Position numbers and translations under genes: made by a program. The notes below the pieces were generated by a model. The model ran no database searches. It was given only the letters and a program-made list of their open reading frames with translations, and was not told the DNA's origin. A stretch of 64,000 nt of DNA from Azolla caroliniana (lineage: Eukaryota > Plantae > Polypodiophyta): contig JBHGNT010000013.1 in assembly GCA_043228905.1 (NCBI GenBank), positions 496,001 through 560,000 on the forward strand, written 5' to 3'. Positions 6,369 through 59,657 of this stretch are shown in pieces (position 1 is the stretch's first letter; each line of letters starts with the position of its first letter).

Positions 6369-6631
6369 TTTTGAGAATCAAACCCAACTTCCGCAATGGA
6401 ATGGCTTTCACACTAGCAATGCACACACTAGGCTAGTTTTGTAAATAGCAAAAAGGGTAGTTGGTATTTAAACCAACCTTTTGTAACTTAGTTACTATTG
6501 GATGTAATTTTATAATTTGCTAATATAGCTTCTTATTCCAAGCTCTCTCTCTCTCTCCTGCTTACCTTACGAACACACACACACAGTTCACTTCCGTTGC
6601 ACAAGATCACCAACACTCACGCTTCTTTACA
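6369..6631 (+). repeat. Copia 5' LTR
   Basis: Aligns to 10867-11068 and 13390-13507; ends in ...tttaCA next to the PBS. Confidence 0.9.
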
Positions 6632-9600
6632 TGGTATCAAAGCGAATAGTTTTCTGATCAAGGTTATTCAACCATGTTATGTCTCACGCTGACAACCAAA
6701 ACACAATCGGCTCAACGATAGAGGAGAAAAATGAACACTCAGATGGGAAGCGTTCTGCCCACAGAGAAACTCGACATATTGAACTTTGCATCTTGGGAAT
6801 ACAAGATGCACCAATATCTTGTTGGTCAAGGATATTGGAGTTATATATCGAGGGAGCTCAAGAAACGCAACCGAACCCAACACACGTCGATTACCCAACA
6901 TGGGAGCAAGTGGCAAGCCATGTGTTGCATTGTCTTGCATCATGCGTTCATGATCACATGCTCATATATATTCGAGAGGCAAAAACACCAAAAGAATCTT
7001 GGGGCAATCTCACGAAGATTTTTGTGACCAATACGGCTCATGTAAACTTCAACTCTGAGAGAAGTTGAACAATATACAACAAAGGGATATGTCGATCACT
7101 AGCTATACCTTGAAGATCAAGGAGCCGTGTGATGCCCTTGGATCAATTAATGTCATCATCGACAATGATGAAATGGTGCAAATATGCCTTGGCGGCCTAG
7201 CACCACGATTCAACACGATTTGATCGGCCATTCTTGCAAGGGAGAATCCTCCCTCCTTTTTCGACCTTCAATCGATATTGTTGGTTGAAGAAAATCATGT
7301 CGAACAAAGGAGCAATGCGCCTAATGGTTATATGCTCTACTCCCAATGGGATGAGGGAAGAGGATTCGATCGAGGAAACAAAGACCGATTCGGCCAAGAC
7401 TGACAAGGTCAGCCAACCCGAGAACGCAATTCCCACCATTAGCAAGAGACAAGGTCAGCCAACTCGAGTTATATTCATGGATTATAATTAGCAGTATCTT
7501 GATAAATGCCAAAGCTTATATTTGGCCTTGTTTTTTATAATATATATTTGTGGAGATGAAACAATATTATGTACTATCTGTATACTGCCTCCGGGCCTTT
7601 TATTAATACCAATGGAGCATATGTTTTATGGAAAAAAAAAAACAAGGCATGTAAGTGCGGTTCAACAATGAAGGGTGCTTCATTGAAAAAGACAATTGAC
7701 TCATAGCTCACGGTCGACGAGAAGGCCGAATGTTCATCCTCGGGTCGAACAAGGTGAATTCAACCATGTTTGCAAAAGGCCTCAAAGTCGAAACCAACTT
7801 GAAACTATGGCACAAGAGAATCATCCTTAAGGGAATGCAGTCGAAAGGAGTCGTCATCGAACTCCCGACTTTTACCGAAAAGGAGATTGCAGGCGTATGT
7901 GAAGCCTGCCAATTCGGTAAACAACACCGACAATCGTTCTCGAAAGAGGAACGTGAGCAAAGGGATCCTAGATGTAGTATATTCAGATGTATGGGAACCA
8001 ACACAGACAACCACATTCGGCGAATGCCAATATTATGTCACGTTCATCGATGACTTCTCCAGGCACACTTGGATCTACCCTATGCGGCAAAAGAGTGAAG
8101 TTCTAAGACACTTCCAAACATTTAAGAACGAAGTCGAAAAAGGCACAAATTGGCATGTCCGATGCCTTCAATCAGATGGGGGCAAGGAGTACTACTCAGA
8201 CGAATTTACAACTTATCTCCAAAAGGAAGGAATTCGATGAGAATTCTCGTGCCGACACACACCTCAACAAAACGGCGTAGCCGAATGAAAGAATTGGCAC
8301 ATAGTAGAGGTGGCAAGGGCAATGATGAACAAGAAGAACCTGCCGAACTCATACTGGGAAGAATCGGTTAACACAAGTGTCTACCTCATGAACAGGTGTA
8401 CAAACTCTAAGGTACATGACGTCACACCCCACGAGAAGTTCTTCGGAAAGAAGCCGGATTTATCCCACGTCAGGATATTCGGCTCAATCGCTTATGTACA
8501 TATTCCCACCGAGAAGTGACAAAAGCTTAATCCCAAGTCGAAGAAATGTATCCTTGTAGGGTACTCACTTAAACAAAAGGGGTACAAGTGTTATGACCCA
8601 GCTATCCGAAAAGTTTGAGTGAGTCGTGACGTCATCTTCGACGAATCGGCATCCTGGTATGAACCAGCGCGACAACTCTGACACCAACCCCAGTTGACCC
8701 GAACTCGGCGGACCAAGAGATCGAAGACGAAAGTCGATTTCGACACATATTCGAAGAAAATCCAATAACGACCAGATTGACTGAACCTCAAGACCCGTCG
8801 AGCGATCAAAGCACAACTCGGCCAACTCCGAAGTTGGACAAATGAAAGGCCAAAATGCCGAAGTACGAAGATCCAGTCGATAACGAGTCTACTCACTCCC
8901 TCGACAGTGAGTTCGAAGCCCTTGATGTCCCAGTTATCCGGACAAATAGAGTTAAGAAAGCCATAGCTACTGCAAACGAGAAGCTCTATCGCTCCACTTT
9001 AGAGAAAAACCCAGTCAGTCGATTCGGCTACGATGACTCTATGGCATATCATTATGCCTTTATGATGAAGGTGGCGACCATCCAAGAACCAGAAACTTTT
9101 TCCGAAACAGCCAAGGATCCACAATGGGTCGAAGCCATGACCAAGGAAATGCATGCACTTTGCAAAAACGAGACATGGGATCTCAGTCCCTGCTCCACAC
9201 ACAAGAAAGCGATCGGTTGCCGGTGGATCTACAAGGTCAAATAGAATGTTGATGGCTCGGTCAACCACTACAAGGCACAACTCGTAGCTAAGGGATATGC
9301 TCAAACACATAGTCAATTATGACGAGACCTTTTACCCGGTGGCAAAAATGACAATTGTTGAGACAAGCAATGTTCTCGTAGTTGCTAAAGGTTGGCATCT
9401 CCATCATCAAATGGACGTAAAGAACGCCTTTCCTCAAGGTGAGTTAGAAGAGGAGGTTTTCATGATTCAACCCCCTGGTTTAGAATCGACCAAGCATCTG
9501 ACCACAATCAGCTGACTCAAGAAGCCATTGTACGGACTCAAGCAAGCAATTGCGTGCTTGGCACTCGAAGATCACTCAGTATCTTCATCAAATCGGCTTC

Positions 9601-11068
9601 TGAATGTCGAAATTGGATAATTCCCTCTACATTAGAAGCGAATCGAACAACCTGATTGTCATCATCCTTTACGTAGATGATCTAGTCATCGGAGGAAAGA
9701 ATCTAGCTGACATCAATAAGGTCAAATCACTCCTATCAGGCATATTCAAAATGAAAGATATGCATGAGCTCCATTACTTCCTCGGTATCGAAGTAATTCG
9801 TACATCAGTCGGGATATTGATCTCCCAACGACACTACATTCTCAATTTACTCTACAAGTTCGGAATGACTGAGTGAAAACCTCTATCAATCCCCCTCGAT
9901 TGCAACCTTAAGCTCGATGTTGACTTAGGAACAAAAGAGTGTGAGCCGACTGAATATCGTCAACTAATCGGTATCTTAATCTATCTAACCATCACACGAC
10001 CCGACCTCAGCTATTCGGTCGGTCTCTTAGCCAATTCATGCAGAACCCTCAAAATTTTCATCTCGATTGCGCTAAGAGAGTACTCAAGTACGTTCGTGGG
10101 ACAATGGATTTTGGCATCTTGTATAAGTCGAACACGATCATTCGACTCAAAGGGTACATAGATGCTCATTGGGGCGGCTATAAAGCCAATAGACGATCAA
10201 CATCGGGATTCGACTTCTCCCTCGACAATGGAGCCATCTCGTGGAGTAGCAAGAAGTAGCCGACAGTTGCATCGTTGAGCACAGAAGCTGAATATAGGGG
10301 CGCGACCGTCGTCGCATGTGAAGCCATGTGGTTCAAAAGAATTTCGAAGTATTTGGTCATTTCTATCAACTTAGGATCTGATTCTCCTGTACTACAACAA
10401 CATGAGGAATATTCATTTGGCTCGGAACCCCGTGTTCCACGTGCGCATGAATATCGAAGTACACTATCACTTCATCCGAGAGCACATCCAGGCTGGAGAT
10501 GTTGACCTGCAGCACATTAGCACAAATCTTCAAGTTGTCGACATATTCACAAAAGCCTTAGGAGTCGACAAGCTCGAGCAATTTACATAGGACCTAGGTC
10601 TAACGATATGTGCATTGCCAAGCTTGAGGGGGAGTACAACAACCGACGAGTACAACGTAGCACCCGAATAGTAGCCAATCGGGTAATCAGTGGACACAAG
10701 CCGACCAAGGGGAGTTGAAAAAAAGCCACATAAATCAAACGAGTCGAAACGATCAAAGCCGAGCCAACCGACTATTCGGCCATAGAGCCGAGAAATCTAA
10801 AAAGTTGAAACGAACCGAATGACAAGACAATCTCTCTGATGATCGGAAGTTGCGTTCGAAAGGGTGTGTTGAGAATCAAATCGAACTTCCCCAGTGGAAT
10901 GGCTTGCACACTAGTTGTGGACACACTAAGCTAGTTTTGTAAATAGCAAAAAAGGTTAGTTGCCCTAGGATAGTTGGTATTTAAACCAACCTGTTGTAAC
11001 TTCGTTATTGTTGGATGTAATTTTATCATTTGCTAATATAGTTTCTTGTTCCAAGCTCTCTCTCTCTC

Positions 11069-13383
11069 AGCGTATTCCATGTGACTCTCTCTCTCTCATC
11101 CTCTCTCTCATCCTCTCTCTTTGTAACGACTCTTTCCGTTGTTGTTGCCATCTATTGTTGTCGCCGTTGTCGTCCTTTGTTGTCGCCGCTATCATCACCT
11201 ATTGTCACCGCCGTCTGCTACCATTGTTGTTGTAGTTGTCCACGCCGTCGTCATCTGACGTCTGCCAAGTGTCGTCGTCGCCCGACGTCAGTCGTCGTCG
11301 TCGTCGTCATCTTCGTCTACCGTCGTTGGTTCTTGACCGTCGTCGTCTCCGCCGTTGTCGGGTGTAGTCGTTGCCGTTGTTGTCATTGTCGGTCACCGCT
11401 ATCACCTACACTTTTGATGACTTCATCGATTGGGTAAACGAGCGAGCGTACATGTGCTTCTACACTCGAACTTAGCGCGCAAGGCATCGATGCCCAACTA
11501 AGTTTTTCTGTCCTTTTTGTCTTTTCTTTCTTCTATCTTTGGAATTACAACATGACTTCTAGACGAAACCATAAGGAAACACACGAAGAAATTATAAGTA
11601 AGGAGGAATTTTTAGATGTCCTTAACCGTTTAGTTAAAATAGAAAAATGGGCGAAAGAGATTAAAGCCGAAAAACAAAAAGATAAGGAAGAAAGAGAACT
11701 GCTTATTGCTGAAGTAGCGAAACTTAAACTAGCCAATGTGAACCTTCAAAAACAAATTAAGGACCTTGGGACATGTAGGAAAGATGGTAAAATATCTTCC
11801 CTAGAGGATATTAAGGATGAGATAAAAAAGGTTAAGGAAGAGGTTAAAAGCGATATAGAATTTAATTTAGCAAAAATTGGGTGGGTTGATGTAGTAAAAC
11901 GTAATATTAAAAAAGAACTAGGATGAAAACATTGTAAACACTACCCTTGTAAACATTGTAAAACGTAATATTAAGCTCTTCGACTCATTAGTGACCCCTT
12001 CCCTCATGCATGCATCAGTAGTATGGGCTCCATGTCTACCATCTTTCATGTGGACGCAATTAGAGAGACCTTTGGTGACGATGTTATCACGTCAACTCCG
12101 AAGCAAATCGACAGTACCACATGACATTATTAGAGCAGAGTTCAGTCTACCCCTGATGTTAGTAGAAGCACTGTTTCAAGTGGTAGTTTTTATTCATCGG
12201 ATACATAGTCAACCACAAGATAGGATATCCCGTCCAGCCTTTGAGGCATCCTGATCCCTACATGCGTCTGGAGACACTAGCTCTTGGTATAACATTGTGG
12301 TGAGTTGGTTACTTGCAAACGGCATAAACATTAATAACCTACTTCCCCTTAAGTACAACCATGGGACTGACTAAACCCTAATCTCTCATGAAGACCATAA
12401 TAAAGTGATACGCCAAGAAATATGGCAAATTTACACTCGATATAAATGGATCACCCCACGAGAGGCACTCCCATCGAAAATGTTGTAGTATAAGGAACAT
12501 TTCTTGCACTTCTCTAAGTTAGGTTTTATCACACAACCAAGATATCTAGATACATTCTTATCAAATGCACTAAGGGTGGCCATTGGACAACTTAGGATAT
12601 CATCTCACCAACTTGAGATTGAGAATGGTCAAGCTAATAGAGTCCCTAGAGAGGAAAGACCATGTAGGTTATGCCAAATAGAGATAGAGGATAAGTATCA
12701 CTTCACATGCAAGTGCCTAGCTTATGCCGAGATACGGGCGGAATACCAAGACATATTAGGACCCTCTTCCCCCCTCTCCAAACTATTAGATACCCCGAGT
12801 GTAAAGAGACTAGGTAGGTATATCTTAGAACTAAAACAAGATAGGGAGAATAAATTACAAAGTGTTAAACATAACCCTTTTGCTATTTATCAACATGTAA
12901 CTAGTTTAATTTTTCAGGAACAAGGGGAGACGACGAATGTGGATACACTTACACCGCTTGGCCTCTCCCTTGAGGAAGCAAAAATGCAAAGAACAACCAA
13001 ACGCCCTCGGATGTTGGGCTTCAAAACAAGTCGACGTGGAGTAGAAAAGATTAAGAAGATAAGGGAATGTGAGTTATGTCGACTAGAAGCTATGGTTGGA
13101 TAATCTTTTACATTGGGACCACGAGCCACATCCACATCACAACCCTTTGACCTCTTGCTTCTCTTCAAGAGACTTGGATGGAAATGAAATTAGGCCTAGT
13201 TGAACATTATTTTCATTGTAGAACATGTTTTTTATATAGAACAGTCTTGTTATTTTCATAGAACTATTTAGCTTAAACTCTATTTTTATCTTATTTTTAT
13301 TTTTACTTTCGATGAATGGGTAAATATCCCATTTTTTTGTAAACCATTTGTCTCATGGGCGAATTTTAGCCTTAGAAGATGTT

Positions 13384-13389
<6 letters not shown>
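11069..13389 (+). mobile_element. RTE-X-like LINE family B, copy 1 (5' UTR + ORF1 start, large internal deletion, ORF2 C-terminus, 3' UTR)
   Basis: (GTC/GTT)n-rich leader, coiled-coil ORF 11552-11926, and ORF2 C-terminus with SSHQLEIENG...CRLC..EIEDKYHFTCKC. Closely similar to 17842-19215 (reverse strand). Flanked on both sides by (TC)n. Clade label is from motif recall. Confidence 0.85.
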
Positions 13390-13432
<43 letters not shown>

Positions 13433-13811
13433 CTTGTCTTACGTACACACACACACACATGGTTCACTTCCGCTACACAAGATCACCTACACTCATGCTT
13501 CTTTACAAGAGCATTTCAATATATATTGATTTTAAAATAGAGACTAACACTTTTTATATGAGAAAGTTGTCGTGAATAAATGTTTATGCATCTGTATATG
13601 GATGTTGTGAGCATAACCTAGAAAAGCCAAAGGAACAAGCCCTAAAAAATCAAGGGTCAAGCTATAGTCCAACAAGGTGTGGACACAACATGAGAAAGGC
13701 ATGCATTGATTGATGTGAATAAGACATACTAGAGAGAAAGCTCAATTGGGCCAATTTAGATGAGGCATTGATATTCTTTGAGTTTTGTTTTGTAGAGAGA
13801 GAGAGAGAGAG

Positions 13812-15024
13812 TATATTATCGTCTTCGGAGGTCAAATATGACCTATGAGACCAAAAATATTACATTTCACGTGATACGTGTGAAGGTGACTAGCGACTCT
13901 CGATGTTCAAGAACTTTACCAATGAATGTTGCAATCAAGAGTGCACATCGTGGTTGTGAGAGAAATTCGTGCAAGGATTGGGTTGGATCGAAGAGATGTG
14001 GAAAGCATGGTCGAATATGATCAAAGGTTGAGCATTGTATCAAAGTGTGACTCAGATTCGCAAACTTGTTTAGGGCGAAGTGTTCATAGCGGACCACCCT
14101 CATCACTTGTGCCCCAACATTCTGTCTCACATCGCAATGGATGTGAGCTAAGTCGCATGGAAGCAATGTTTCAAATGGCAGATAACGGTATGGGCTCTAA
14201 CATGTATCGATGTGTATGGTTTCCCCATTCCGCAAAGAATATGGTTTTGTAGTTAGGTGCAACATGTGTAGTATAATGTGTGAAGCATGTGCCTCCACAT
14301 TTGTCCCATGTCATGATACATTGGTGTTGCAAAAAGGCCTCATTTACAGAGGAATCTAGTGACGCATCATGAAGCAAGTGTCTCGCATCCCATCTACCAA
14401 ACCATTTTTCTAAATCTTGCATCCAACCGGAACAAAAAATATTGTTTTTATACGTCTTTTGGATCTTTTTGCTTGCTTCCCATGCAATTCTAGGAAATCG
14501 ATGTGAGGGACTTTGTTGAACCTTAAGTATGTATTCAACAACCCTTTCCATGGCCAAGATCTCAATGGGAAGCGATCCCGTCTCAAGGACGAGGAGGGTG
14601 TAGGGCGTTTCTTTCTTAACTTGTAGAAACTTTGTAACAAAATGTTTTTGGACATTTTCAAAATCTTTAAACATAGATTTAGGGATTCTACCGCCCCATA
14701 CTTCCACCCCATAAAGAAGAACCGGTGTCACCAAAGTGTCGAAAAGATATTTCTTGAGGACCCAACACTTAATATCTCCAAGATTGCATGTGTTCTCAAA
14801 TGCATAGTATGATCGTTTACCCGCCTCTAAGCAGCGTGTAGCACAATCATTCCATTTCTTATTTGAAGGAACTTCAAGGCCAAGATATTTGAAGCTTTCC
14901 ACACATTCAAGTGGCTCATTGTTGTACATATTGCATGGTTTATCTCTTTTTTGGCTCTTCACAAACATAATCTTTGTTTTAGAGCTATTGAGACTTAATC
15001 TAGTATGCATGCAAAAATTGTTTT
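13812..15024 (-). mobile_element. RTE-X-like LINE family A, copy 1 (5'-truncated)
   Basis: ORF 14171-15010 (KTKIM...FKYLG...LLYGVEVWG) is the post-RT region. Flanked by (GA)n at 13794-13811 and 15025-15039. Confidence 0.85.
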
Positions 15025-15039
15025 AGAGAGAGAGAGAGA

Positions 15040-16134
15040 TGTTGTAATTCTTTGCAAAAAGAGTTATTGTGTCTTCTCGGTTATTATGTTGGCTTAGAAA
15101 AGAGAGATTGTGCTCTCAATTTAATCATTTGTTTCATTTGGGGGTCAAAGAGGTGGGAGATATAATTGAGGCTGCATCTCAAAGAAATTTGGGTTTGTTG
15201 AAGCACGACAATTATTATGCAACCCGCCTACTTACAGGTTTATCTTGTAACAACAACAAAATATTGCATTGATGCAATGTCCTTTACGTTTACAAATAGG
15301 AGAGCAATTGTAGATTTATTGGTCTTTACGAGGCTAGACGTTGTTTTTACAAGTGACTATCAATCTTTTGTATCATTTCTCCGTTGAGTCTCTTCGATGG
15401 CGATCATCTGAGGTTGAAGAAGAATAGAAAATACATAACTCTAATTATGGATGGTGACAAAATCTTAAGACGTCGTTGACATTCTAAATTGGTGCTCGCA
15501 ACAACGGTCTTCATTTGGAGAGTTTTGATTGGGATTTGCCTTTGGGATTAGCTCTAAAGAGATGTGGACTAACAAAGGGCAATTGTTTCTTTTGCATTGT
15601 TCAAATGGAAGATAATACTCATTGTTTCATGCATTGTTTGATTGCTTGTCAAATTTGGAGTTACATTTCTCAAAATTGCCGAGTTTTATGACAATGTTAT
15701 TTGATGCCTAGACAATGGGTGTTCGCACAATTTACACAATTTGACCCAACATCACAGATGGAGATCATTTTCCTATTTCTGAGGTATTGGGGAATGCGTC
15801 ATAATTGGGACATGGGTGTTCGCACAATTTACACAATTTGACCCAACATCATAGATGGAGATCATTTTCCTATTTCTGAGGTATTGGGGAATGCTTTTGT
15901 ATTTTATGGTAGGCATGGAGTCAAAGCATATCTACGAAAGTTTACAGGAGTACTAATGTGGCAATTTTCATTATTGGAGAAAGTGGAAATTTTTTTCTCA
16001 GTGGAGTGTTCGCCTTGCCTATTGGCAATTCAACATGTTCCACAACCCATGTAGTTAGTGGGTGACCATACTCCATTGTGACACCCATTGTAAGTAGTGT
16101 TTTTCACAAACATTTATTAATATAATTGTGTGTT

Positions 16135-16139
<5 letters not shown>
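15040..16139 (+). mobile_element. L1/Tx1-like LINE, 5'-truncated and decayed copy
   Basis: Homologous to 22229-23254 (zf-RVT region) with the same 3' terminus ttaatataattgtgtg-tttt. Flanked by (GA)n. Contains a ~98 bp tandem duplication at 15714-15894. Confidence 0.8.
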
Positions 16140-16194
<55 letters not shown>

Positions 16195-16197
<3 letters not shown>

Positions 16198-16400
16198 AGA
16201 TGGATGTAGCTAAGTTGGTAAGGTTGCCCAATGGAGACCAGGTGGTCATGGGTTCAACCCTTACATTCCACAGTGACATCTAGTGAATTAAGAGATATAT
16301 AAGAAGTATATAATAGAGAGGTGAGGAAGTTGGGTTTCGAACCCAAAACGCATTGCTTGTAGTGCTAACAACTTACCAGTAGGGTAAGGTAATTACGATA
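16195..16400. mobile_element. SINE-like element with two convergent tRNA-like modules
   Basis: + module 16202-16268 (A box tagctaagttgg, B box ggttcaaccc). - module 16329-16387 (taccctactggtaa, ggttcgaaaccc). Second full copy at 28644-28825. Confidence 0.7.
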
Positions 16401-16441
16401 AATAATAATAATAATAAATAAATCAAGATAGATATATAGAT

Positions 16442-17815
16442 TATATTATCGTCTTCAGAGGTCATATTTGACCTATGAGACCAAAAATATTACATTTCAC
16501 GTGATACGTGTGAAGGTGACTAGCGACTCTCGATGTTCAAGAACTTTACCAATGAATGTTGCAATCGAGAGTGCACATCGTGGTTGTGAGAGAAATTCGT
16601 TCAAGGATTGGGTTCGATCGAAGAGATGTGGAAAGAATGGTCGAATATGATCAAAGGCAGAGCATTGTATCAAAGTGTGATACTCAGACTCTCGAACTTG
16701 TTTAGGGCAAAGTGTGCATAGTCGGCCACTCTCATCACTTGTGCCCTAACGTTCTGTCTCACATCTCAATGCGTGTGAGCTAAGTTACATGGAAGCAATG
16801 CTCCGAATGGCAGATATCAGGATGGGCTCTAACATGTATCGATGTGTACGGCTTTCCCGTTCCCGAAGAATATAGTTTTGTGGTTAGGTGCAACATTTGT
16901 AGTATAATGTGTGAAGCGTGAGCCACCACATTTGTCCCATGTCATGATACATTGGCGTTGCAAAAAGGCCTCATTTACAGAGGAATCTAGTGACGCATCA
17001 TGAAGCAAGTGTCTCGCATCCCATCTACCAAACCATTTTTCTAAATCTTGCATCCAACCGGAACACAAAATTTTGCTTTTATGTGTCTTTTAGATCTTTT
17101 GCTTGCTTCCCATGCAATTCTAGGAAGTCGATGTGAGGGGCTTTTTTGAACCTTAAGCATGTATTCAACAACCCTTTCCATGGCCATGATCTCAATGGGA
17201 AGTGATCCCGTCTCAAGGACGAGGAGGGTGTACGGCGTTTCTTTCTTAACTTGTAGAAACTTCGTAAGAAAATGTTTTTGGACATTTTCAAACTCTTTCC
17301 ACGTAGATTTAGGGATGCTACCGCCCCATACTTCCACCCCATAAAGAAGAACCGGTGTCACCAAAGTGTCAAAAAGATATTTCTTGAGGACCCAACAATT
17401 AATATCTCCAAGATTGCATGTGATCTCAAATGCATAATATGCTCGCTTACCCGCCTCTAAGCAGCGGGTAGCACATTCCGTCCATTTCTTATTTGAAGGA
17501 ACTTCAAGGCCAAGATATTTGAAGCTTTCCACACATTCAAGTGGCTCATTGTTGTACATAATGCATGGTTTATCTCTTTTTTGACTCTTCACAAACATAA
17601 TCTTTGTTTTAGAGCTATTGAGACTTAATCTAGTATGCATGCAAAAAAAATTCAATGCCTTCATAAGCTTTTGTGCATCTCCTAAAGTATTTGCAAAAAG
17701 CACTACATCATCCGCATATAACAAAAGCATAATCACAACATTCCCAATGGCAACTTCTTCAACACATTCTTCCTTTACAAACTTGGTAACCATTTCTTCT
17801 AATTCATCAATGCAT
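16442..17815 (-). mobile_element. RTE-X-like LINE family A, copy 2 (5'-truncated)
   Basis: ORF 17041-17793 with LLYADDVVL; closely similar to 13812-15024; (GA)n at 17816-17838. Confidence 0.88.
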
Positions 17816-17841
17816 AGAGAGAGAGAGAGAGAGAGAGAAAG

Positions 17842-20455
17842 ATATATTAACGTCTTCTAAGGCCAAAATTGGCCCATGAGACAAATGGTTTACAACAAAA
17901 AATGGGATATTTACCCATTCATCGAAAGTAAAAAATAAAAATAAAAATAGAAACATGTTCTACAATGAAAATGATATTATACTAGGCCTAATTTCATTTC
18001 CATCCAAGTCTCTCGAAGAGAAGCGGTAGGTCAAAGGGTTTCGATGTGGATGTGGCTCGTGGCCCCAATGTAAAAGGTAAAAGGTACCCCAACCATAGCT
18101 TCTAGTCAACGTACCTCACATTCCCTTATCTTCTTAATCCTTTCTACTCCTAGTCAACTTGTTTTGAAGCCCAACATCCGAGGGCGTTTGGTTGTTCTTT
18201 GTGTTTCGGCTTCCTCAAAAGAGAGGCATAACAGCATCAGTGTATCCACATTCATCGTCTGCCCTTGCTCTTGAAAAATTACACTAGTTACAAGTTGATG
18301 AATAGTAAAAGGGTTATGGTTAACACTTTGTAATTTATTCTCCCTATGTTGTTTTAGTTCTAAGATATACCTACCTAGTCTCTTTACACTCGGGGTATCT
18401 AATAGTTTGGAGAGGGTGGGAGAGGGTCCTAATATGTCTTGGTAATCCACTCGTATCTCAGCATAAGTTGGGCACTTGCATGTGAAATGATACTCATCCT
18501 CTATCTCTATGTGGCACAACCTACATAGCCTTTCCTCCCTAGGGACTCTATTAGCTCGACCATTCTCAATCTCAAGTTGGTGAGATGATATCCTAAGTTG
18601 TCCAATGGCAACCCTTACTGCATTTGATAAGAATGTATCTAGATATCTTGGTTGTGTAATAAAACCTAACTTAGAGAAGTGCAAGAAGTGTTCCTTATAG
18701 TACAACATTTTAGATGGGGGTGCCTCTCATGGGGTGATCCATTTATATCGAGTGTAAATTTGCTATATTTCTTGGTGTATCACTCTATTACTGTCTTCAT
18801 GAGATATTAGGGTTTAGTCAGTCCCATGGTTGTACTTAATGGGGGGTAGGTTATTAATGTTTATGCCATTTGCGAGTAACCAACTCACCACAATGTTATA
18901 CCAAGAGCTAGTGTCTCCCGACGCATGTAGGGATCGAGATGCCTCAAAGGCTCGACGGGATATCCTATCTTGTGGTTGGCTATGTATCCGATGAATAAAA
19001 ACTACCACTTGAAACAGTGCTTCTACTAACATCGGGGGTAGACTGAACTCTGCTCTAATAATGTCATGTGGTACTGTCGATTTGCTTCGGAGTTGACGTG
19101 ATAACATCGTCACCAAAGGTCTCTCTAATTGCATCCACATGAAAGATGGTAGACATGGAGCCCATACTACTGATGCATGCATGAGGGAAGGGGTCACTAA
19201 TGAGTCGAAGAGCCATCCCTTAGTTCGTGGCTCTTGAAAGTATGCCTAGTGGCCTTGTCTCTCTAGGAGTGAGAGGGATGCATACCCTCTCGTTAGCCTA
19301 TCTTTGGCTACCTGGGTCATCGAGAATTTACCTGAGCGAGCACTAAAAGTGACTCCCAAGTATACACATGATCCAACTACCGCAACTATTTTATGGGAGA
19401 GGATTAGGTGACATTTACTCCTAACTCGGGATGATGTATGAAAGATAAGGACTTTAGTTTTCGCTAGATTCACTATCAGCCCTCGTTGTGTACAAAAGTC
19501 ATCTAGGGCATTAAGATGCTTTTGTAGGTCGTGTTTTGACTCTGAGAGCAAGACAATGTCGTCTGCATAGAGTAAGAGACTAACTTGCATATCCCCAATA
19601 GCTAATCTCGTGCCTCCCTTACGAGCAATAAAATCAGTGATCTCATCAATGTAGATCCCAAAAAGAGTCAGTGATAGGGGGCAACCCTGTTTTACACCAA
19701 TGGTGCTAGTGAAACAATCGGATAGGCCACCTAGGGATCTTACACACCTAGAGACTTGCTCATATAGGGCATAAATGGCCCAAATCATGTCATTTGGTAT
19801 CTCCAAGCTCTTAAGTCTATCAAACAACTTCTCCCTAGGAACTGTGTCAAAGGCTTTGCGGAAGTCCACAAAGCAACAATATAGTTTCTTTTTACGAGCC
19901 TTCATCTGGTCAATTAAGCACCTAAGTGTGAAGATATGGCAAATAGTGGAGAAGGCTCATCTAAAGCCAGCCTGCTCAGGTGCTCGAAGACTTAATGTTT
20001 CCATATAATCGCTAAGCTCTACTTCCATTACCGCACCATATAGTTTAGCAAGCGTATGGCCTATCATAATGGTCCTATATGTATTTGGGTCCCCTCCTTT
20101 ATGTATAGCGGCCACTATGTTCAGGGTCCATTGTGGTGGAAAACCCTCGGCGAGGGTGCGGTTGAAGATTAGAGTGAGAAAGGGGGCTAGGCACTCTCGA
20201 ACATATATGATGTGCTCAGCTCGCAATCCTGTGTGGTCCATGGATTTCCTATGTTGTAATTTTTTTATGGCCTTCGTGACCCTAGAGGTCGTGAAAAATG
20301 TCCCCATGTTAGGTCGAGGTGTGGAAGGCATTGGGATGGGTGGTTGGTTCGGGACATGGTAGAGTCTCTCAATATATGTGTGCCAAATATTGGGATCCTC
20401 GGTGGGTGTTTATGGTTGCGGTTCCCGTAGTCTCTTCCATGCAAGGACTGATTTC
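17842..20455 (-). mobile_element. RTE-X-like LINE family B, copy 2 (5'-truncated, RT to 3' end)
   Basis: EQAGFR, FVDFRKAFDTV, GVKQGCPLS, LLYADDIVL and C-terminal RLCRLC...EDEYHFTCKCP; 3' end abuts (TC)n on its sense strand. Confidence 0.9.
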
Positions 20456-23251
20456 CCAACATTTTTAAGGATTAAGACCACCATATGCTCGTTCAAATGT
20501 GGTACAAATTAGGATAGGGGATGACATTGTTGTATACCCAGTCAAGGTTATTGAGTTATGTATTACTCATTTTAAGAATTTTATTGGGCCAGAGTTGATT
20601 ATTAATGAGGATGTCTTGAAAGCTCAACAAGAGTTTTATAATGTAATTGGGAGTGCCGTGAATACAAATATTTGTCAAGAATTGGATGTTGATTTTGAAG
20701 AAGTTGAGGTGGAAAAGGTATTGTTACACCTTCCAAATGGTAAAAGCCCTCGCTGGGATGGTGTTACAAATGAAGTTTTTAAGAAGTATGTGAGCCTGCT
20801 TAAGAGTCCATTCACACAAATGTTTCAACAATGTTGGGATTCTATTCTAGTTTCATGCCTGAGAGCTGGAAGGTGGGCTTAATCAAATTGATACCGAAGC
20901 TACCATCTCCGGAGTCATTTCATCTATGGAGGCCTATTTCATTGATGGGAGGGTTGTACAAAGTGTTTGCAAAGATATTATCCAACTGACTTAAGAAGTT
21001 CTTACCTCAACTTATTCATCCATATCAATATGGTTTTATTATAGGTAGAAATATATTGCATAATGTTTTGAATGTTCAAATGGCGACCGATTATGTGTGA
21101 CATACACATCAAGAAATGGTTATGGCGCAATTAGATTTGGAAAAAGCATATGATCATGTTAATTGGTCTTTTCTCTCAGGTGTGATGTATAATATGGGGT
21201 TTGGTCCTCGTATGTGTCGACTTATCTTTTTGCTAGGGCAAAATGCAACCTCCCATGTGATGCTTAATGGCGGAGTCACTCCGAAAGTGTTTCTTACTAG
21301 ATCCATGCGGCAAGGATGTCCACTAAGCCCATTATTATTTGCTATTGTTACACATCCTTTGTTAGTAATGTTGTCAAATCTTGCGGCCAGTGGTGATATT
21401 GTGGGTTTGCATCTTCCTTCTAGTGGACAATTGGTGGCACAAGCATTGGCAGATGATTCTTTTATGTTTTTACAAGCCTCAAAAGAAAATCTTAAAAGGA
21501 GTATGCAAGTTTGGGATCAATTTGCTTTGGCTTTAGGGTTGTATATCAATTGGAGGAAGTCTCGCCTTATTTCTTGTACGGAGAGTGATATGGAATGTTT
21601 GGGATGGCGAGGGTCAGTGATTACACGAGGTTCAATTTATTGACATTTGGGTTATCCATTGGGCATTGATGTTACAAATTTCAATTGATTGATTGGATTG
21701 GTAGTAAATTGAGGGACAAATTTATGTATTGGAAGTCTCAATTATGGCCCTTTCATGTACGACTCAAAGTGGTGCAATGTATCTTGATACCCATGTTATT
21801 ATATTTTTTGCCTTTACTTTCTTGGACTAAGAAGGCATTACAAAGCATGTTACAACCTATTCGGTTCATGTTGTGGCGGAAGGGAGAAATGATGGGAGTT
21901 ACATGGATTTCATGGGACCATTTGGCTACTCTTAAAACATTAGGTGGTGCAGCAATATTGGATTTGGAAAGGCACTTGATGGCTCGTAGATTTACATTAT
22001 TACGAGATATATGTCAACAAAATCAACCATGGATATCTATGATGCAATATTTTATTGAGCATGAAGGATTGATGCATGGGAAAACAAAGATTCAAGCATC
22101 ATGGTGGTCACTACTGAATGAAAGTATTCCTCTAAAGATTCGACATTCTGTATGTGGACAACATTTGGTAAGATCGTGGCAAGATGCATTATCTCTTTTT
22201 GAATAGGGACCATCAAGTGATCGAGAATATTGTAATTCATTACAAAATGAATTGTTTGTTTCTTCTCGAGTGTTGTTTTGGCATGGGAAAGAGAAGTTGA
22301 GATCTCAATTCAATCGTTTATTTCGATTGGGGATTGTACATTTGGAAGATGTGGTTGATAATGAATCTCAAAGGTTGTCGGGTTTTGAAGATGCCAAGAG
22401 ATGGTTATGTATTCCCCCAAATTATGGATTTATTTGGGAGAAATTACATGATATACCATTGTTGCAAGGATCTTTGCCATTGAAAACCAATTTTGCACCT
22501 TGGGTAGATTGGCGGTTACAAGATGGTACACGCTTGTTATCGGTCACTACAAATATATTGTATCATCATGCGATGGCATCATTATATTGGCTATTTCCTA
22601 AAGCAACGAAGGTGTGGAATGTATATAAGTCAGATGCAATGTGGTGGAAAATATTACAACGTGGTTGGCATTCCCATCTACCATTTCATGCAAAGGTATT
22701 CATATGGAGAGTCATGATTGGTGGGCTCCCATTAGGTTCGGCCTTAAAGAGACGAGGACTAGGATTTGGCACTTGTTTCTTTTGCATTGTTCTATTGGAG
22801 GATAGTACACATAGGTTCATTAAATGTCCTATAGCGTGTACCATTTGGAAGTACTTATTGGACATTTGGCAAGTTTTAACCCGTTGTTGTTTGAGGCCTC
22901 AACAATGGGTTTTTTCTCAATATGTTCAAAATGGATCAAATGATGAGATGGAGATCTTGTTCCAATTTTTACGTTATTGGGGTCTACAACACAATTGGAA
23001 TATACGTAATGCTTTCATGTTTGATAATAGACATGGGGTGAAAGCCTATATAAAGAAGCTTAAAGGTATTCTCATGTGGAATTTTTGGATGTTAGAGCAT
23101 GTGGGGATCATTTCCTCAAATGCATATTCAGGTTTTTTAGTAGCATTACGGAATGTCCCTCTCCCTACATAGGCATATGATATGTAGAGGAGACTAAGAA
23201 GTGTTGTAACTAAGTGGATTTTACATACAATTAATATAATTGTGTGCTTTT

Positions 23252-23254
<3 letters not shown>
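20456..23254 (+). mobile_element. L1/Tx1-like LINE ORF2 (RT + zf-RVT), 5'-truncated, with stops
   Basis: GKSPRWDG, LDLEKAYDHV, RQGCPLSPLLF, LADD, KVFIWR...CFFC...EDSTHRFIKCP; 3' end runs straight into (GA)n at 23255-23302. Confidence 0.92.
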
Positions 23255-23306
<52 letters not shown>

Positions 23307-28004: not shown

Positions 28005-28823
28005 CTACCCCAATTGCTTCAGAGCTTTGATAATCTCTTCAGTTGAAAAGTTATTTTCTGTGCACACAGTGCAAGGACTGTTTGACGGAACCACATCCTC
28101 CCTTGCATAGCTACCACCACTTCGGAGAAGATTCTCAGAACCACCTTTTACACTACCTTTCAATATAACAGTTTTATGTGCACCAGATAGTAGTCCTTCA
28201 TAGTCAGTATCCCCAGCCTCGCCAATGAACACCACCATGTTTGCAACATCGATTCCCCATCTCACAAACAAATACCTGTCATCATTTTCATATTCTCATA
28301 AAAGCATGTGAGCATAATGATCCCAAAGCCAAGCTAACAGTGCCTAGTTGAGAATGCACGTTTCAAACATGCATAAAGAAAATGCACCTCAAGGCTTGAG
28401 ATCGAGAAGCCAACAGGGGAATAATGTGAAGTTTTGTGGAATGTTGGCAGTAAATAAAATGGCTTCTTAAGCCTTGAAGTCTAAACTGCATCCTGATCTC
28501 ATCCACTTTCCAGCACTGCAAGAATACATTAAGGATGGATATAAAGTAGACTATATTCGCTACAAAAATATAATTCTCTCCCTTTCTCTTTTTCTCTCGT
28601 AACACCATATATACTCTCACTAGCCCAATCTCGTTTATCATATTTACCCTGCTGGTAAGTTGTTAAGACTAGCACAACATCTTGGGTTCAAAACCAAATT
28701 TTTTAACCTCTATTACTCCATACATCTCTTAATTTACTAGATACCACTGTGGAATGTAACAGTTGAACTCATGAGCTTCTGGTCTCCATTGGGCAACCTT
28801 ACTAACAAAGCTACATCCATCTC

Positions 28824-28871
<48 letters not shown>

Positions 28872-31800
28872 TACCATGTCTACATCCTTCACATTATAAG
28901 CTAGGCAATATTGGTTGGAAGGGCAATCGTCTTCAACTAGTGCTCGTGAAAGCTGTTCATATTTTGTTAACCATCTAGACATCGTCTTCCTCACACTCAC
29001 TCTGTCCCAACGATATGCAATATGAGTGTCATAATTCTCGTCTACACAAAGCTGTGGATCAGAGCTGCCTCCATCTTCTGAACCTAGATAGCCTGGATAA
29101 AAGAGTTCACTGCCACTGCTACAGATTAAGACATCAAACTCATATGCAGAAATATTGCCAGATTCCAGGATTGTGAGGAGTTCAGACAATTTCAAGGAAG
29201 AAGACAATACATATCCTGCATTACGGTATGTTGGCGATAAATGTGTGGCTTCAAAAATATTCTTTATTACTGAAACCAAATCCGCACCCTGGCTTTGTGT
29301 TGAACCATAGCAATCAACAGCTATGGTGACTAGGCGCTTCCTTCTTCTGACGTTTGGTGTTCGGAATGCTAAATTACCAGTATGCAGTTTGGGAAATGAT
29401 GATAATTTGTTGGGCACAGAGTTAGCAGTTTGTGTTTGTGTGGTTCCACTCCCCTCTGAGATATCTATGTCATCAAGCGAGGTTAATGAGACTTCAAGAT
29501 CACCAATATCACGTAACGAGTCTTCATTAGAATCGGGTTCAGCCGCTGAGTCATCATCATTCTGCCATTTGGGATACCTCATCCTACATAAGGCAATCCT
29601 TGACAAATAGGTCTTGCAATGCTCAGGCCATGAAAACAGATGTATATTTTTCAATCCATTACGCCTGCATTCCATCCAGAATAGCTTGTCAGCCAAGAGC
29701 TTCAGTAAGGCATCCGCAACACCTGCTTGATCATGGGGATCTACCAGTATCCCGTTGTTTAATACCTGTCATAGAAGAAAGTAGCTTTTGGGATCACATT
29801 CCAGGTTTGAAACAAAGATGCCTTCCAACATAAAACAAAGAACACTTCAGTTAAGCTATAAGTTGATTTCAAGGGTGGGTATTAGATATGTGCCCGATGG
29901 ATATCAACTGGTCCTCCATTTCGAGTTGCAACCATCGGTAACCCATTTGATGCTGCCTGTGGAAGGTAACACAGTTATTATCACGTTTGCTTTTGATGTG
30001 ATGATAGCAGCAGGTTACATGAATTATTAAAAAGTACTATCACTGTGTGCCTCATACCTCAATCAATGTAAGCCCAAAAGGTTCAACTAAAGCAGGATTG
30101 ATGAATACACCCTGGTATGCAGCAAAACATGGACTGTTAATACTTCCAGATGTTTATTAACAATATCATAATTGACAATATATCCTGCTGCTATACATAT
30201 TTCAGTTTCCATTGCCTGGCATCAGAACATTTACTGCTGCTAGAAACTTCAATATTTTACATTCAAACCCTAGCCAAAATTCAGAAATTTTGAAAGAATG
30301 CAGGCTTAATAGAGAGAAATTTTCTCCAAGTTCACACTTCCGGCATGAGAAGACATAAGATGCTACCGAAGGAAATGAACAGGCCGCGCCTTTTCATGAA
30401 GATGCTTCTACGTGATATTGCCTGTATTTCAGATATGTCATCCTTACATATTCAATAAGTTCTGTAGAGCTCTTGGCATTTGAAGACCAGGAACTTTATG
30501 ATTCTTCCCAAAACCTTCTTCAGAATTTGATAACGCATTAGCAGTTTTAAATCATTCGTGTGAGAAGTCATGTTAAGGCACTAATATGTTCATTAACTAA
30601 TGACTGTGGAGCCTGAACAGAAAAAAATTTAAGTGTCATTTGGCAATCATCACAAGCATAAAAGGACAGGCCAAAACGCCATTTCATCCAGAAAGATGAG
30701 GAAAAACCATACAAATTTCTGCGTTGATGTCATGAGGATTCAAACACTCCTCACATGTGCATCTTCAAACATCCAGTAAACCATTAGAAATTGTCATTGA
30801 CACTCTAGAAGTCACTCTGGAGTACATCTGATTTATATTATAAAATCTTTTCTTCAACAGTGGAATTTTGTTGACACTTTTTTATTGTCCTCACAAAAAC
30901 CCTACATTAACAAACTTAACATAATCAAGTATTCTCAATACAAACAAATTGGTACCTTCGTTTTTGCAGCAAGCCGATAAATATCAGAGACTTCTGACTG
31001 TTTGTGATGTTTTGGATATGCCACAAGGCCATAAAGATCATATTTGTCAATTAACTTCAAAACTGTTGTCAGGACTGTAGAGCTACTCGTGGGCATTTCA
31101 TCAATATCATCACGATTCCCCAATATAAGTGTCTAAAGAATCAAACATATCCTATCAGCAACTTACATGCATAAAACTTCACTAAATTAAGCTGGATCTT
31201 ATTCCATTGTAAACTAAAGATAGGACTCCTTATTAGTATTAAGAGTTTCCCAGAAGAAAGCAAATATCTATCAAGGAAACATTAAGTTAAATCAAGAGAA
31301 CCAAAAACTAAAGCCAGTCTACCACAAATCAAAGATTATATCCTGAAGGATTATGAAAGTCTCGACTAGAAAGAACATATTAATGAACGATTACATGCAT
31401 CTGTATAGTTTATGGATGTATATATGCATGTATCAATATATAGATAGGTATGCAAATAGGTACATATTACACGCATCCATAAGTAGAACTGTCTATATAC
31501 ACATACTAAATTTGCCAAATCACGAAGAGGACGACATTCTCCAAATGCTTTTACTAGTGTTGTAATGTTCTTCTTTGGATCTGGTCGTGCAAGTGCAAGG
31601 ATCATTGGCTTCCTTGGATTTGTAAAGAATCGCATAATCTGGATATCATAACCAGAGTGATTATTGCTTTCTCTGTAAAATTAGTATGAAGTATTTATCG
31701 TACAAGAACAGGGAATCTCACATCAGCCCATATTGGTGGTTCTTCTCCAATAGACATATCTCCACCTGTATCTGCATCACTGTCAGTGGCATCTCCAGAG

Positions 31801-33481
31801 TCAGATTCAAGATGTTGGCTGAACTCCATTCCAGGAGGAATAACCTAAGAACACCTTGCTTAGCTCTTGCATATATTCCAGGAGTCAGAAAATTTTGGAA
31901 TAAATAGGGTTATGGCCTGAAGAAAGAGAACCTACCACCATCCGCGGGAAGTAATGACCATGACAGCTGAGCTCATATTTAGCCCTTGCACGGAAATACC
32001 GTTCAAGCTTAACATCAAAACCATCATAAAGGCCCCACTGTTCATCGATTTCTTGCTTAGTGCTGGTTACAACAAGTTCCGATGAATCAAGAGACAGCTC
32101 CTCTGCTTCTATACGGCGCATTATTTTATATGTTGCATTTATATCCTCTTTAGATTGACGACCTTGTTTCAAAAGTTGTTCCAGTTTATTTCTACCTAGA
32201 GAATGTCCAGTAGTAACCATCGGCACATTTAGTGCACCAGATAGGAGAGAGGCTGCATGAGCAGCATCTGCATAGTGACCATGAACAACATGAGGCCATA
32301 CAAGGTCTCCCGCAGCAACCTGCTCACCCAAGACCCTTGACATGTTATAGATATGAACCAGTGCACCATCCACAAATTCCTGAATGTATGGCCACAATAG
32401 TTCTTTACGAATATATCTATCTCTTGGGCCAAACGGGATTCTAACTATATATGCTCCACTGCTTTCCCCAATCTGTTGCTCTTCAGTAGCATATGATTTT
32501 GAACCAAGCATCTCAGTGGGTTCTCCGTATGTCCAATGAACATCTTCTGAACATATCTGACGAGTTAAGAGATCTACTCTGTACACTTGCGGCATATGGG
32601 CCAGTGCTCTTGCCAACTCTACAACATATTTCACCTGTTTAATTAAATATCAGTTCAAGACAAGAAGTTTCAAAATGCTTCATAATTTTTCAGTGCAAAC
32701 AAAGCTCACCTGGCCACCTGTGTCAGAGTCTCGACCAAGTTCCATGTCATCACCTCGCACTAGTCCATGCAAGCTGCAAAAAGTACAGCAAAAGGAAAAT
32801 AAGATGCTTTCACATAAGCTTGTCACTCATGCATGCAGGTGCTAAATGCATCAAAGAAATCTGGAAATGGTCTGCCATACCTAATCAAAACAATGTATAA
32901 TTTCTTCTCTTTTGGCTGTTCCGCCCATTCTGCAACACGGTCAACAGAGCTCACTCTTGGCATTCCTTTACCACCAGTAATGGTGCTTACAGCTGATGAT
33001 GAGAAATCCGGTTTCTCTCCTGACAAAAAATCAGTCAGGTCTTCAGTTGCATCTTTGTGTCCTTCCTCACGTTCAATCTGTCGCTTTGCAAGCCTCTGAG
33101 CTTGGTCCCATGCAATCTGGATCAATAACAGGAGCATGAAGCTTTAGGGACTCTTGAAGATACAAAAGCCTGGCCCTCTTGATGTATCAATCAATGAGGC
33201 TCAGTTAGAGCACAAGGTTTCCTCAATAGAGAAAAAATCATTCCCTCATTAATGTATAAATGCATTAGGCTTTCTATATAGAAAATCAAGAAATCTTGCC
33301 CTCTTAATGCATGAATACTTAAACAATATTTCCTCAATGCATGAAATGAGGAAAAAATCAAACATTTAATAACTTAAATTTCTACCTGTTTCTTCTTTCG
33401 GGCAAGGTGCCATATCCTCCAACACATGTTCTCCAACCGGATGTTCCGTTCGTGGATATTCTTTGTCGCAGTTGCCTGCAG

Positions 33482-33534
<53 letters not shown>

Positions 33535-35151: not shown

Positions 35152-35280
35152 CTCCTCTGTTTATCTCTCTCTCTCTCTCTCTCTCTCTCTACCTCTCTAC
35201 CTCTCCTGTGATCACAGGAAAGAAGGAAGGAAGGATGATGATGACTATAAGTCTATAAGCCCCAAGAAGAAGCAGGAAAG

Positions 35281-42100: not shown

Positions 42101-42347
42101 AGGTCCATTATCTGCAGAAGAGAAGGAGGATGCCTTGAATGGACATTGTGAGAAATTAGCTGTAGCATTTGGGCTAATTAGTACACCGCAAGGCACTACC
42201 ATTAGGATTGCAAAGAACCTTCGTATGTGTGTAGATTGTCACTCAGCAACAAAGGCTATATCAAAGATTGAACTGCGTGAAATAATTATTGCTGATACAC
42301 ACTGTATACATAAATTTAATAATGGAATATGTTCTTGTTGTGATTAA
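39190..42347 (+). CDS. PLS-class PPR protein with DYW:KP-type deaminase-like domain (main exon 39587-42347; predicted transit-peptide exons 39190-39270 and 39412-39512)
   Basis: PLS repeats, E domains, WKKPGKAFIEV, HCEKLAVAFGL, KNLRMCVDCH, ending CSCCD*. The upstream exons splice in frame via GT-AG and give a Ser/Pro-rich N-terminus (upstream exons inferred). Confidence 0.92.
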
Positions 42348-46192: not shown

Positions 46193-46440
46193 GCTTTTAC
46201 AACAACAAACATCTGCTCAACAAGAAACACCAGTAGTTGAGATTGAGGGTATTGTACATACCCCAAGAGAGGAGGATTTCCAATGGGAGTCTGGTCTGCA
46301 TACAGGCAAAGGCAAGCAAACAAGGGCAGAGCAGAATCGCCATTCTCTTCCGATGGAGCCTTACATTCACATCTATGCATGCATATACATACATAAAAGA
46401 GGTAGGTATGTAGTTGAATGAGATGCCAACTCCCAAGGCC

Positions 46441-55394: not shown

Positions 55395-55402
55395 TGTGTG
55401 TT

Positions 55403-55444
<42 letters not shown>

Positions 55445-55489
55445 GTGTGCAAGTGAGTGTGTGAGAGACAGAGAGAGCTCTTCTTTGTA

Positions 55490-55551
<62 letters not shown>

Positions 55552-59620: not shown

Positions 59621-59657
<37 letters not shown>

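What the first reader, a model, noticed from the sequence alone, without database searches (positions are those of the whole stretch)
11056..23302. A train of several retroelement families docked at (GA)n/(TC)n microsatellites with family-specific orientation
Seen: from 13794 the order is (GA)n - LINE A(-) - (GA)n - L1(+) - (GA)n - SINE - LINE A(-) - (GA)n - LINE B(-) - L1(+) - (GA)n, plus LINE B(+) between two (TC)n tracts at 11069-13389. All four RTE-X-like copies read (TC)n on their sense strand, while both L1/Tx1-like copies end into (GA)n. Three 5'-truncated copies also have the repeat at their 5' junction, which a simple 3' tail cannot explain. Known: microsatellite-specific non-LTR elements exist in animals (e.g. 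Kibi/Koshi of the Tx1 group, Waldo). Inference: a multi-family guild in this plant targets the same dinucleotide repeat, from opposite strands, and regenerates target sites with each insertion.
Basis: partly seen in the sequence, partly recalled or inferred. Interest (0 to 1): 0.8.

Follow-up and report, generated by a model that had tools for sequence, protein, structure and literature searches.

The report
Fern LINEs dock at GA repeats
Six copies of four jumping-gene (LINE) families lie almost end to end at GA/TC repeats in what is likely a fern genome, one of them inside a repeat that existed beforehand, so two unrelated LINE groups likely prefer the same simple repeat and enter it from opposite strands, a habit known from animal LINEs.

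Summary
The train is real. It holds two RTE-X-like families (A, B), two distinct L1 families and a 200-bp repeat; homologs point to a fern. Four of 6 LINE 5' junctions sit at GA/TC tracts, which cover about 1% of the window; relatives from other organisms show 0 of 15. Public contigs hold further L1-(GA)n-A tail-to-tail joints. Corrections: copy A2 ends in an (ATCT)n-type tail, not (TC)n, as do many A copies elsewhere; two 5' junctions (B2/L1-2) have no repeat; the three 5'-truncated junctions share two tracts; the SINE label was not confirmed. Likely mechanism: target-primed insertion in which each clade nicks the strand that pairs with its own RNA tail. This fixes orientation and leaves new tracts. 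It looks like a preference, not strict specificity. The genome-wide 5'-junction count could not be run. New variant of a known kind (Kibi, microsatellite-targeting MITEs).

The parts
6371..6633 (+). Copia LTR, upstream copy; holds the intact (CT)7.5 tract at 6543-6557 and serves as the empty site for B1
   Evidence: aligns to both halves of the interrupted LTR, 154 of 172 and 67 of 76 ungapped columns; followed by a PBS-like TGGTATCA and gag/integrase remnants
10869..11068 (+). Left part of the downstream LTR, ending in (CT)6.5 at 11056-11068, the 5' junction of B1
11069..13389 (+). LINE B1 (RTE-X-like): CT-rich 5' UTR, coiled-coil-like ORF1 piece (about 11552-11926), internal deletion, then ORF2 from about residue 845 to the 3' hairpin
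   Evidence: 11781-11949 is 73% identical to the ORF1 region of relative L002; 11976-12668 is 87% identical to P0001
13390..13429 (+). (TC)20: tail of B1 plus remainder of the LTR tract
13430..13509 (+). Right part of the downstream LTR
13510..13793 (.). Low-copy spacer, left flank of the train
   Evidence: one contig per run covers it in 4 of 4 runs (tables 2 and 8)
13794..13811 (+). (AG)9, at the 3' end of A1
   Evidence: flank-tract-A1 junction lies on one contig in 3 of 4 runs
13812..15024 (-). LINE A1 (RTE-X-like), 5'-truncated
15025..15039 (+). (AG)7.5 shared by the 5' junctions of A1 and L1-1
15040..16139 (+). L1-1, 5'-truncated L1-clade copy with a 97-bp tandem duplication; no poly(A), ends directly in (GA)n
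16140..16194 (+). (GA)27.5
16195..16400 (.). About 200-bp non-coding repeat (SINE- or MITE-like; class and strand unresolved), abutting the GA tract
   Evidence: 79% match to 28644-28822 and 74% to 2418-2508; no tRNA or Rfam hit
16425..16441 (-). (ATCT)n-type, degenerate 3' tail of A2 (not TC)
   Evidence: the same tail type shows in loose ends of other A copies
16442..17815 (-). LINE A2 (RTE-X-like), 5'-truncated within the RT domain
17816..17838 (+). (AG)11.5: tail of B2 and 5' junction of A2
17843..20448 (-). LINE B2 (RTE-X-like), 5'-truncated upstream of RT
   Evidence: 87% identical to P0001 residues 430-1075; RVT_1
20449..20462 (.). Head-to-head junction of B2 and L1-2 with no GA/TC repeat (counter-example)
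20463..23254 (+). L1-2, 5'-truncated L1-clade copy of a second family; no poly(A), ends directly in (GA)n
   Evidence: 87-92% identical to P0121; RVT_1 and zf-RVT
23255..23303 (+). (AG)24.5, right end of the train
28644..28856 (-). Second copy of the 200-bp repeat, with the same end against (GA)15.5, in an intron of a sucrose-phosphate-synthase-like gene
   Evidence: gene name recalled from the translations

Best explanation
Two RTE-X-like and two L1 LINE families lie end to end at GA/TC tracts in opposite orientations, likely because each prefers to insert into such tracts by nicking the strand that can pair with its own RNA tail. Shown: the arrangement, a pre-existing (CT)n target for B1, pyrimidine tails behind a shared hairpin in A and B, and (GA)n ends without poly(A) in the L1 copies. 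Inferred: the A/B endonuclease nicks the GA strand, whose 3' end pairs with the (UC)n or (AUCU)n tail and primes reverse transcription, so the element reads (TC)n. The L1 endonuclease nicks the TC strand, like the pyrimidine-strand nick of human L1 (established knowledge), so the element reads (GA)n. Each event splits the tract and adds tail repeats, which leaves a tract on each side that the next element can use. The preference is loose, at least for family A.
For: Empty paralogous LTR with (CT)7.5 exactly where B1 sits. 4 of 6 5' junctions at tracts that cover 1.2% of the window. None of the 6 LINE copies shows another element inside it, although tracts are about 2% of the train. L1 3' end joined to an A 3' end across the repeat, an order absent from this window, in 5, 4, 4 and 0 contigs of the 4 runs (2 of the 15 rows shown of 1198). 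Random placement would give about 0.02-2.1 such pairs under rough copy-number and genome-size guesses. Conserved 3' hairpin in A, B and relative L003 with changed but paired stems. Control: 0 of 15 clear 5' junctions of metagenome relatives lie at GA/TC, so the pattern is not a clade-wide by-product of having a repeat tail. Tail-to-target pairing is a published model for RTE-clade LINEs (PMC6007223, passages).
Against: One locus and one empty site. B2 and L1-2 have no repeat at their 5' ends. A2 and many other A copies end in (ATCT)n: 79, 102 and 72 contigs in three runs, against 59 and 50 with at least nine GA units in two runs (rows shown, 24 of 5286). One listed A-A joint has no GA between the copies (table 5c). 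None of the 24 loose-end rows shown of 661 had a GA consensus, though most are diverged A sequence and not junctions. A full-length relative (L007) has a CT-rich 5' end of its own, so part of B1's 5' CT may be element-encoded. No endonuclease data.
Confidence: 0.62

Rival explanations
1. The tracts are fragile DNA (breaks or single-stranded, triplex-prone stretches) and the LINEs use the free ends without a sequence-selective endonuclease; tail pairing alone sets the orientation.
For: Explains why unrelated clades and a non-coding repeat share one target, why the preference is loose, and why B2 and L1-2 meet head to head without a repeat, as if both were primed at one break.
Against: Intact relatives keep an APE endonuclease domain. 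In the known animal cases target choice is attributed mainly to the endonuclease (PMC4494074, passages). No direct test here.
Confidence: 0.2
2. The repeats are only the elements' own 3' tails. The cluster is a tolerated intergenic dumping ground and the 5' contacts are chance.
For: Short tandem tails are general in this clade. Family A is very abundant (summed depth up to 7.9e5 against 50 for the single-copy flank). About half of the window's 20 tracts have no element beside them.
Against: Does not explain the empty LTR, the tract at 15025-15039 that is the 3' tail of neither neighbour, the 4 of 6 junctions, or the lack of internal nesting.
Confidence: 0.1
3. Separately inserted elements were brought together later by deletions between GA tracts, or were joined by the assembler at the repeats.
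For: Repeat tracts are plausible recombination and mis-join points. Only the left junction of the train was seen on independent contigs; no listed contig bridges the inner junctions.
Against: The LTR continues in register on both sides of B1. A homology-driven deletion needs GA on both sides, and the element side of the 5' junctions has none. The B2/L1-2 junction has no repeat to mis-join at.
Confidence: 0.08

Closest known systems
Kibi (Tx1 clade, teleost fish; inserts into (TC)n) and Koshi ((TTC)n); crocodilian Tx1 families at (TTCC)n/(TTTC)n (PMC4494074 and PMC3812793, passages read; the primary paper, doi 10.1093/molbev/msg235, is not held)
   Same: APE-type L1-group LINE without poly(A), abutting a GA/TC dinucleotide repeat
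   Different: Here a plant lineage that forms its own clade (SH-aLRT 99) and is not nested among the fish and frog sequences. It shares the target with an unrelated RTE-X-like group in the opposite orientation. Specificity looks loose.
RTE-clade LINEs and Au-like SINEs with microsatellite-like tails that influence the insertion site (PMC6007223, abstract and passages read)
   Same: 3' hairpin followed by a short tandem tail; proposed pairing of the tail with the nicked strand
   Different: There the overlap is one to a few bases at dispersed sites; here whole GA/TC tracts are occupied and split. A and B have a real ORF1, which RTE proper lacks or has only as a rudiment (PMC3905857, passages).
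Plant microsatellite-targeting DNA transposons: Ac-mMITEs of pineapple (PMC8449440, passages), MuTAnT (PMC4486113, search listing and start of abstract), Micron (named in PMC3812793, passage)
   Same: Flanked by dinucleotide repeats on both sides; Ac-mMITEs form clusters by adjacent insertion (46.1% in clusters)
   Different: Those are DNA transposons and the targets named in the passages read are mainly (TA)n; here retroelements of two clades at GA/TC with strand polarity.
Waldo, Mino (AC repeats) and Dong (TAA repeats) (PMC3812793, passage)
   Same: Non-LTR elements inserted in microsatellites
   Different: Animal elements of other clades (clade names recalled), each with its own repeat.
RTE-X and L1-Tx1 annotations in the fern Ceratopteris (PMC6890710, passages and Table 2: 8733 and 23635 elements)
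   Same: Both classes are already annotated in a fern genome
   Different: The passages read say nothing on target sites; the word microsatellite does not occur in the main text.

Membership tests
RTE-X clade (families A, B) | RT groups with named RTEX reference elements | not testable with these tools
   No named RTEX references on hand. The tree shows only that A and B are sister groups (SH-aLRT 99) apart from the L1 sequences. The label rests on recalled C-terminal motif likeness.
RTE-X clade (families A, B) | ORF2 with APE endonuclease and RT | tested here: met
   Exo_endo_phos and RVT_1 in the nearest intact relatives P0001, P0003, P0036, P0042; the window copies lack the endonuclease part
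RTE-X clade (families A, B) | A true ORF1 (unlike RTE proper) | tested here: met
   B1 carries an ORF1 piece matching L002; ORF1 of 207 and 327 aa in L002 and L007. Not examined for family A.
RTE-X clade (families A, B) | Esterase in ORF1 (present in some RTEX members, PMC3905857) | tested here: not met
   0 Pfam families on the ORF1 of B1, L002 and L007; the feature is not universal in the clade
RTE-group 3' end | 3' stem-loop followed by a short tandem tail | tested here: met
   Hairpin z -2.5, -3.9, -1.1, -2.8 for A1, A2, B1, B2; -3.4 and -0.2 for L003 and L005; alignment
L1 clade (L1-1, L1-2) | ORF2 closest to L1 ORF2p; APE, RT and C-terminal zinc-binding domain | tested here: met
   P0121 and P0125 best match human L1 ORF2p (E 1e-38, 2.5e-55); zf-RVT in L1-2. 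L1-1 is placed only by 41% identity to P0121/P0122.
L1 clade (L1-1, L1-2) | Poly(A) 3' tail | tested here: not met
   2 of 2 copies end directly in (GA)n
Tx1 clade / Kibi | RT groups with Kibi, Koshi and other Tx1 elements | tested here: inconclusive
   The fern lineage is a separate clade; its link to angiosperm and liverwort L1 has support 81 only; the quick tree holds no named Kibi or Koshi
Target-specific LINE (criterion of PMC4494074: the target in more than 20% of flanks) | Genome-wide share of copies flanked by the target | not testable with these tools
   No genome held; in the window 4 of 6 5' junctions; contig tables too truncated to count
tRNA-derived SINE (16195-16400) | tRNA-related head | tested here: inconclusive
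   0 ARAGORN genes, no tRNA match in Rfam at E up to 5; A/B-box-like motifs seen by eye at both ends in inverted orientation

The most novel reading that the evidence does not exclude
In ferns, two unrelated LINE clades and a non-autonomous passenger have converged on one GA/TC duplex from opposite strands. Each insertion makes new targets for all of them, so the guild builds multi-family trains genome-wide and generates much of the genome's GA microsatellite content. The repeat-free head-to-head B2/L1-2 junction would record two different elements primed on opposite strands of the same site.
Probability: 0.35. Interest if true: 0.75.

Novelty: new variant of a known kind. Interest (0 to 1): 0.5.

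Why it matters
Microsatellite-targeted LINEs are described from animals, and the plant examples I found are DNA transposons. A plant L1 lineage without poly(A) and an RTE-X-like lineage that share one repeat from opposite strands would extend target-selective retrotransposition to land plants and to a further clade. It gives a natural test of whether the endonuclease or the RNA tail picks the site: family A has two tail types on one body. It also bears on where fern GA repeats come from, on the reliability of GA markers, and on assembly of these regions.

Tried and rejected
No whole genome is held, so no genome-wide flank table. A second laying of contigs on the A2/B2 junction gave no depth over the repeat or B's 3' end, so B's tail types were not counted; its listed loose ends were mostly diverged A sequence. 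Two listed joints link a 5'-truncated A or L1 copy to a GA tract (2 of 12 rows shown of 496, table 5c), and one 3-contig loose end is GA-rich. I do not count these as support: with thousands of junctions, about 1% would hit a tract by chance. In run X8 (another organism code) the flank contig runs through the (AG)9 tract and ends 6 unaligned letters later. This hints at a longer tract without A1 beside it, but the letters were not shown. Pattern scans for the A/B 3' end in genome contigs and viral contigs, and for the L1 3' end in viral contigs, found 0. No unique TSD can be resolved inside the repeats, and none was found for the Copia element. Microhomology at 5' junctions is at most about 2 bases for A2 and undetermined for the others, so it is not evidence. 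The B-type endonuclease had no PDB match by sequence, so no loop comparison with site-specific endonucleases. The careful tree did not finish; the quick tree is reported (84 rows: 80 of 240 stored proteins picked by hand plus 4 window pieces). Earlier scan findings: six answered look-ups returned nothing on this topic. Literature: ten searches listed no report of plant LINEs targeting microsatellites. Repbase and most subscription papers are outside the library and no supplements were read, so a Repbase entry describing these families may exist.

Full report
What is there. The region 11056-23303 holds six LINE copies and one short non-coding repeat. Named homologs among the best hits are from Adiantum and Ceratopteris, so the host is likely a fern; the species was not determined and no genome is held. 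From left to right: B1(+) 11069-13389, a 284-bp low-copy spacer after the LTR remnant, (AG)9, A1(-), (AG)7.5, L1-1(+), (GA)27.5, the 200-bp repeat, A2(-), (AG)11.5, B2(-), L1-2(+), (AG)24.5. A1/A2 are 93% and B1/B2 89% identical. L1-1/L1-2 are only 66% identical and are two families, though they share their last 35 or so bases. No LINE hit lies elsewhere in the window.

What the elements are. In a quick RT tree of 84 rows, A and B fall in sister groups (SH-aLRT 99), well apart from the L1 sequences. L1-2 lies in a clade with Adiantum sequences (99) whose link to other plant L1 is weak (81), and it is not nested among the fish and frog sequences. Intact relatives of A and B have an APE endonuclease and RT, and B-type elements have an ORF1. 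This fits RTE-X, but no named reference could be compared, so RTE-X-like is as far as the evidence goes. The L1 relatives match human L1 ORF2p best. Tx1 membership is open. The 200-bp repeat has a second full copy at 28644-28825 with the same end against (GA)15.5, and a partial third copy without a tract. It has no tRNA or Rfam match.

The 3' ends. A and B share a hairpin just before the tail, also present in relative L003. A2 does not: it ends in an (ATCT)n-type tail. In public contigs this tail type is at least as prominent for family A among the rows shown: 79, 102 and 72 contigs in three runs, against 59 and 50 contigs with nine or more GA units in two runs (24 of 5286 rows shown, so not a census). 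Relatives from other organisms end in (TCTT)n, (GTAA)n, (AAAG)n or (ATCT)n. A repeat at the 3' end is therefore ordinary and says nothing about targeting by itself.

Evidence that the repeat is a target. First, an empty site. B1 sits inside a Copia LTR. The LTR copy at 6371-6633 reads CCAAG-(CT)7.5-CTGCTT; the copy downstream reads CCAAG-(CT)6.5, then 2.3 kb of B1, then (TC)20-CTACTT, and aligns in register on both sides (about 89% identity). The tract was there before B1. Second, 5' junctions: B1, A1, L1-1 and A2 start at a tract, B2 and L1-2 do not. That is 4 of 6, or 3 of 5 with the shared tract counted once, against 1.2% of the window (P 2.7e-7 and 1.5e-5, optimistic because the window was picked for this). 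The tract at 15025-15039 lies between two 5' ends and is the tail of neither. Third, the copies are packed end to end without internal nesting, although tracts make up about 2% of the train. Fourth, contigs from 3 of 4 runs join an L1-1-type 3' end to an A 3' end tail to tail, an order not present in this window (5, 4 and 4 contigs). Random placement would give 0.02 to 2.1 such pairs under rough guesses; the tool warns that summed depth is no copy number, so this is an order of magnitude only. Fifth, a control: of 80 metagenome loci of the wider clade, 50 had a close partner and 15 gave a clear 5' truncation junction. 0 of 15 lay at GA/TC; one lay at (ATGA)n, like the tail of its family. Two of the 15 share a flank and are not independent.

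Evidence against strict specificity. The B2/L1-2 junction has no repeat. One listed A-A joint has none. Family A has mixed tails. L007 shows that full-length elements of this group carry CT-rich 5' ends, so the inner CT runs of B1 at 11085-11120 are likely part of the element.

How it most likely works. In target-primed reverse transcription the nicked strand primes on the RNA 3' end (established knowledge). An RNA ending in (UC)n or (AUCU)n can pair with a nicked GA strand, so A and B read (TC)n. An L1 RNA can pair with a nicked TC strand, so it reads (GA)n. Orientation then follows from tail chemistry and needs no further rule. The tract is split and extended at each event, so targets persist on both sides and a train grows. 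The strand choice, the pairing and the role of the endonuclease are inferred, not shown (confidence 0.62). The main rival (0.2) has the same outcome but places selectivity in fragile repeat DNA. Tails plus chance (0.1) and later rearrangement or mis-assembly (0.08) fit poorly; only the left junction of the train was confirmed on independent contigs.

Comparison with what is known. Kibi inserts into (TC)n in fish, and other animal LINEs into AC, TTC or TAA repeats (PMC3812793 and PMC4494074, passages). Tail-guided site choice is proposed for RTE LINEs (PMC6007223, abstract and passages). In plants, pineapple Ac-mMITEs target dinucleotide repeats and cluster by adjacent insertion (PMC8449440, passages). 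RTE-X and L1-Tx1 classes are annotated in Ceratopteris with no mention of microsatellites in the main text (PMC6890710, passages). Ten searches listed no plant LINE that targets microsatellites; Repbase was not searchable.

Verdict. A real feature, partly mis-described. It works like Kibi-type microsatellite targeting, in a plant and in two clades at once, with loose specificity. New variant of a known kind; interest 0.5.

Noticed in passing
window 16195-16400, 28644-28825, 2418-2508: A 200-bp repeat with two inverted A/B-box-like motifs. Both full copies put the same end against a GA tract; the intronic copy has GA-rich sequence beyond its other end too. It could be a GA-associated MITE or a SINE.
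   Followed up: partly
window 20449-20462: B2 and L1-2 meet head to head with about 4-14 unassigned bases and no repeat: a later deletion, or two elements primed on opposite strands at one site.
   Followed up: partly
window 16425-16441 and loose ends: Family A has two tail types, (TC)n and (ATCT)n, behind the same hairpin, a natural test of whether the tail picks the site.
   Followed up: partly
window 6371-13509: Copia element whose LTR copies are about 89% alike, with no TSD found and 234 bp between the purine tract near 10620-10634 and the start of the LTR match; the two LTRs may not come from one insertion.
   Followed up: partly
window 11069-13389: B1 keeps the 5' UTR and part of ORF1, then jumps to the 3' third of ORF2: an internally deleted, possibly non-autonomous form.
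   Followed up: partly
window 59622-59653: (CT)16 at the end of a Ty3-like element, probably in its LTR, with no insertion beside it.
   Followed up: no
window 55395-55708: Compound (TG)n/(GA)n array with a 45-bp higher-order unit.
   Followed up: no
window 24465 onward, 28700-35200 (-), 39585-42347 (+), 43931-46216 (-): Host genes recognised by eye from translations: a ubiquitin-conjugating enzyme about 1.1 kb right of the train, a sucrose-phosphate synthase, and two PPR genes.
   Followed up: no
L070:6958-7002: A 5'-truncated relative whose junction lies at (ATGA)5, like the tail of its family; a possible second case of tail-matched targeting in another organism.
   Followed up: partly
L007:316-1308: ORF1 (316-1299) and ORF2 (from 1306) of this relative lie in the same frame, six bases apart.
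   Followed up: no
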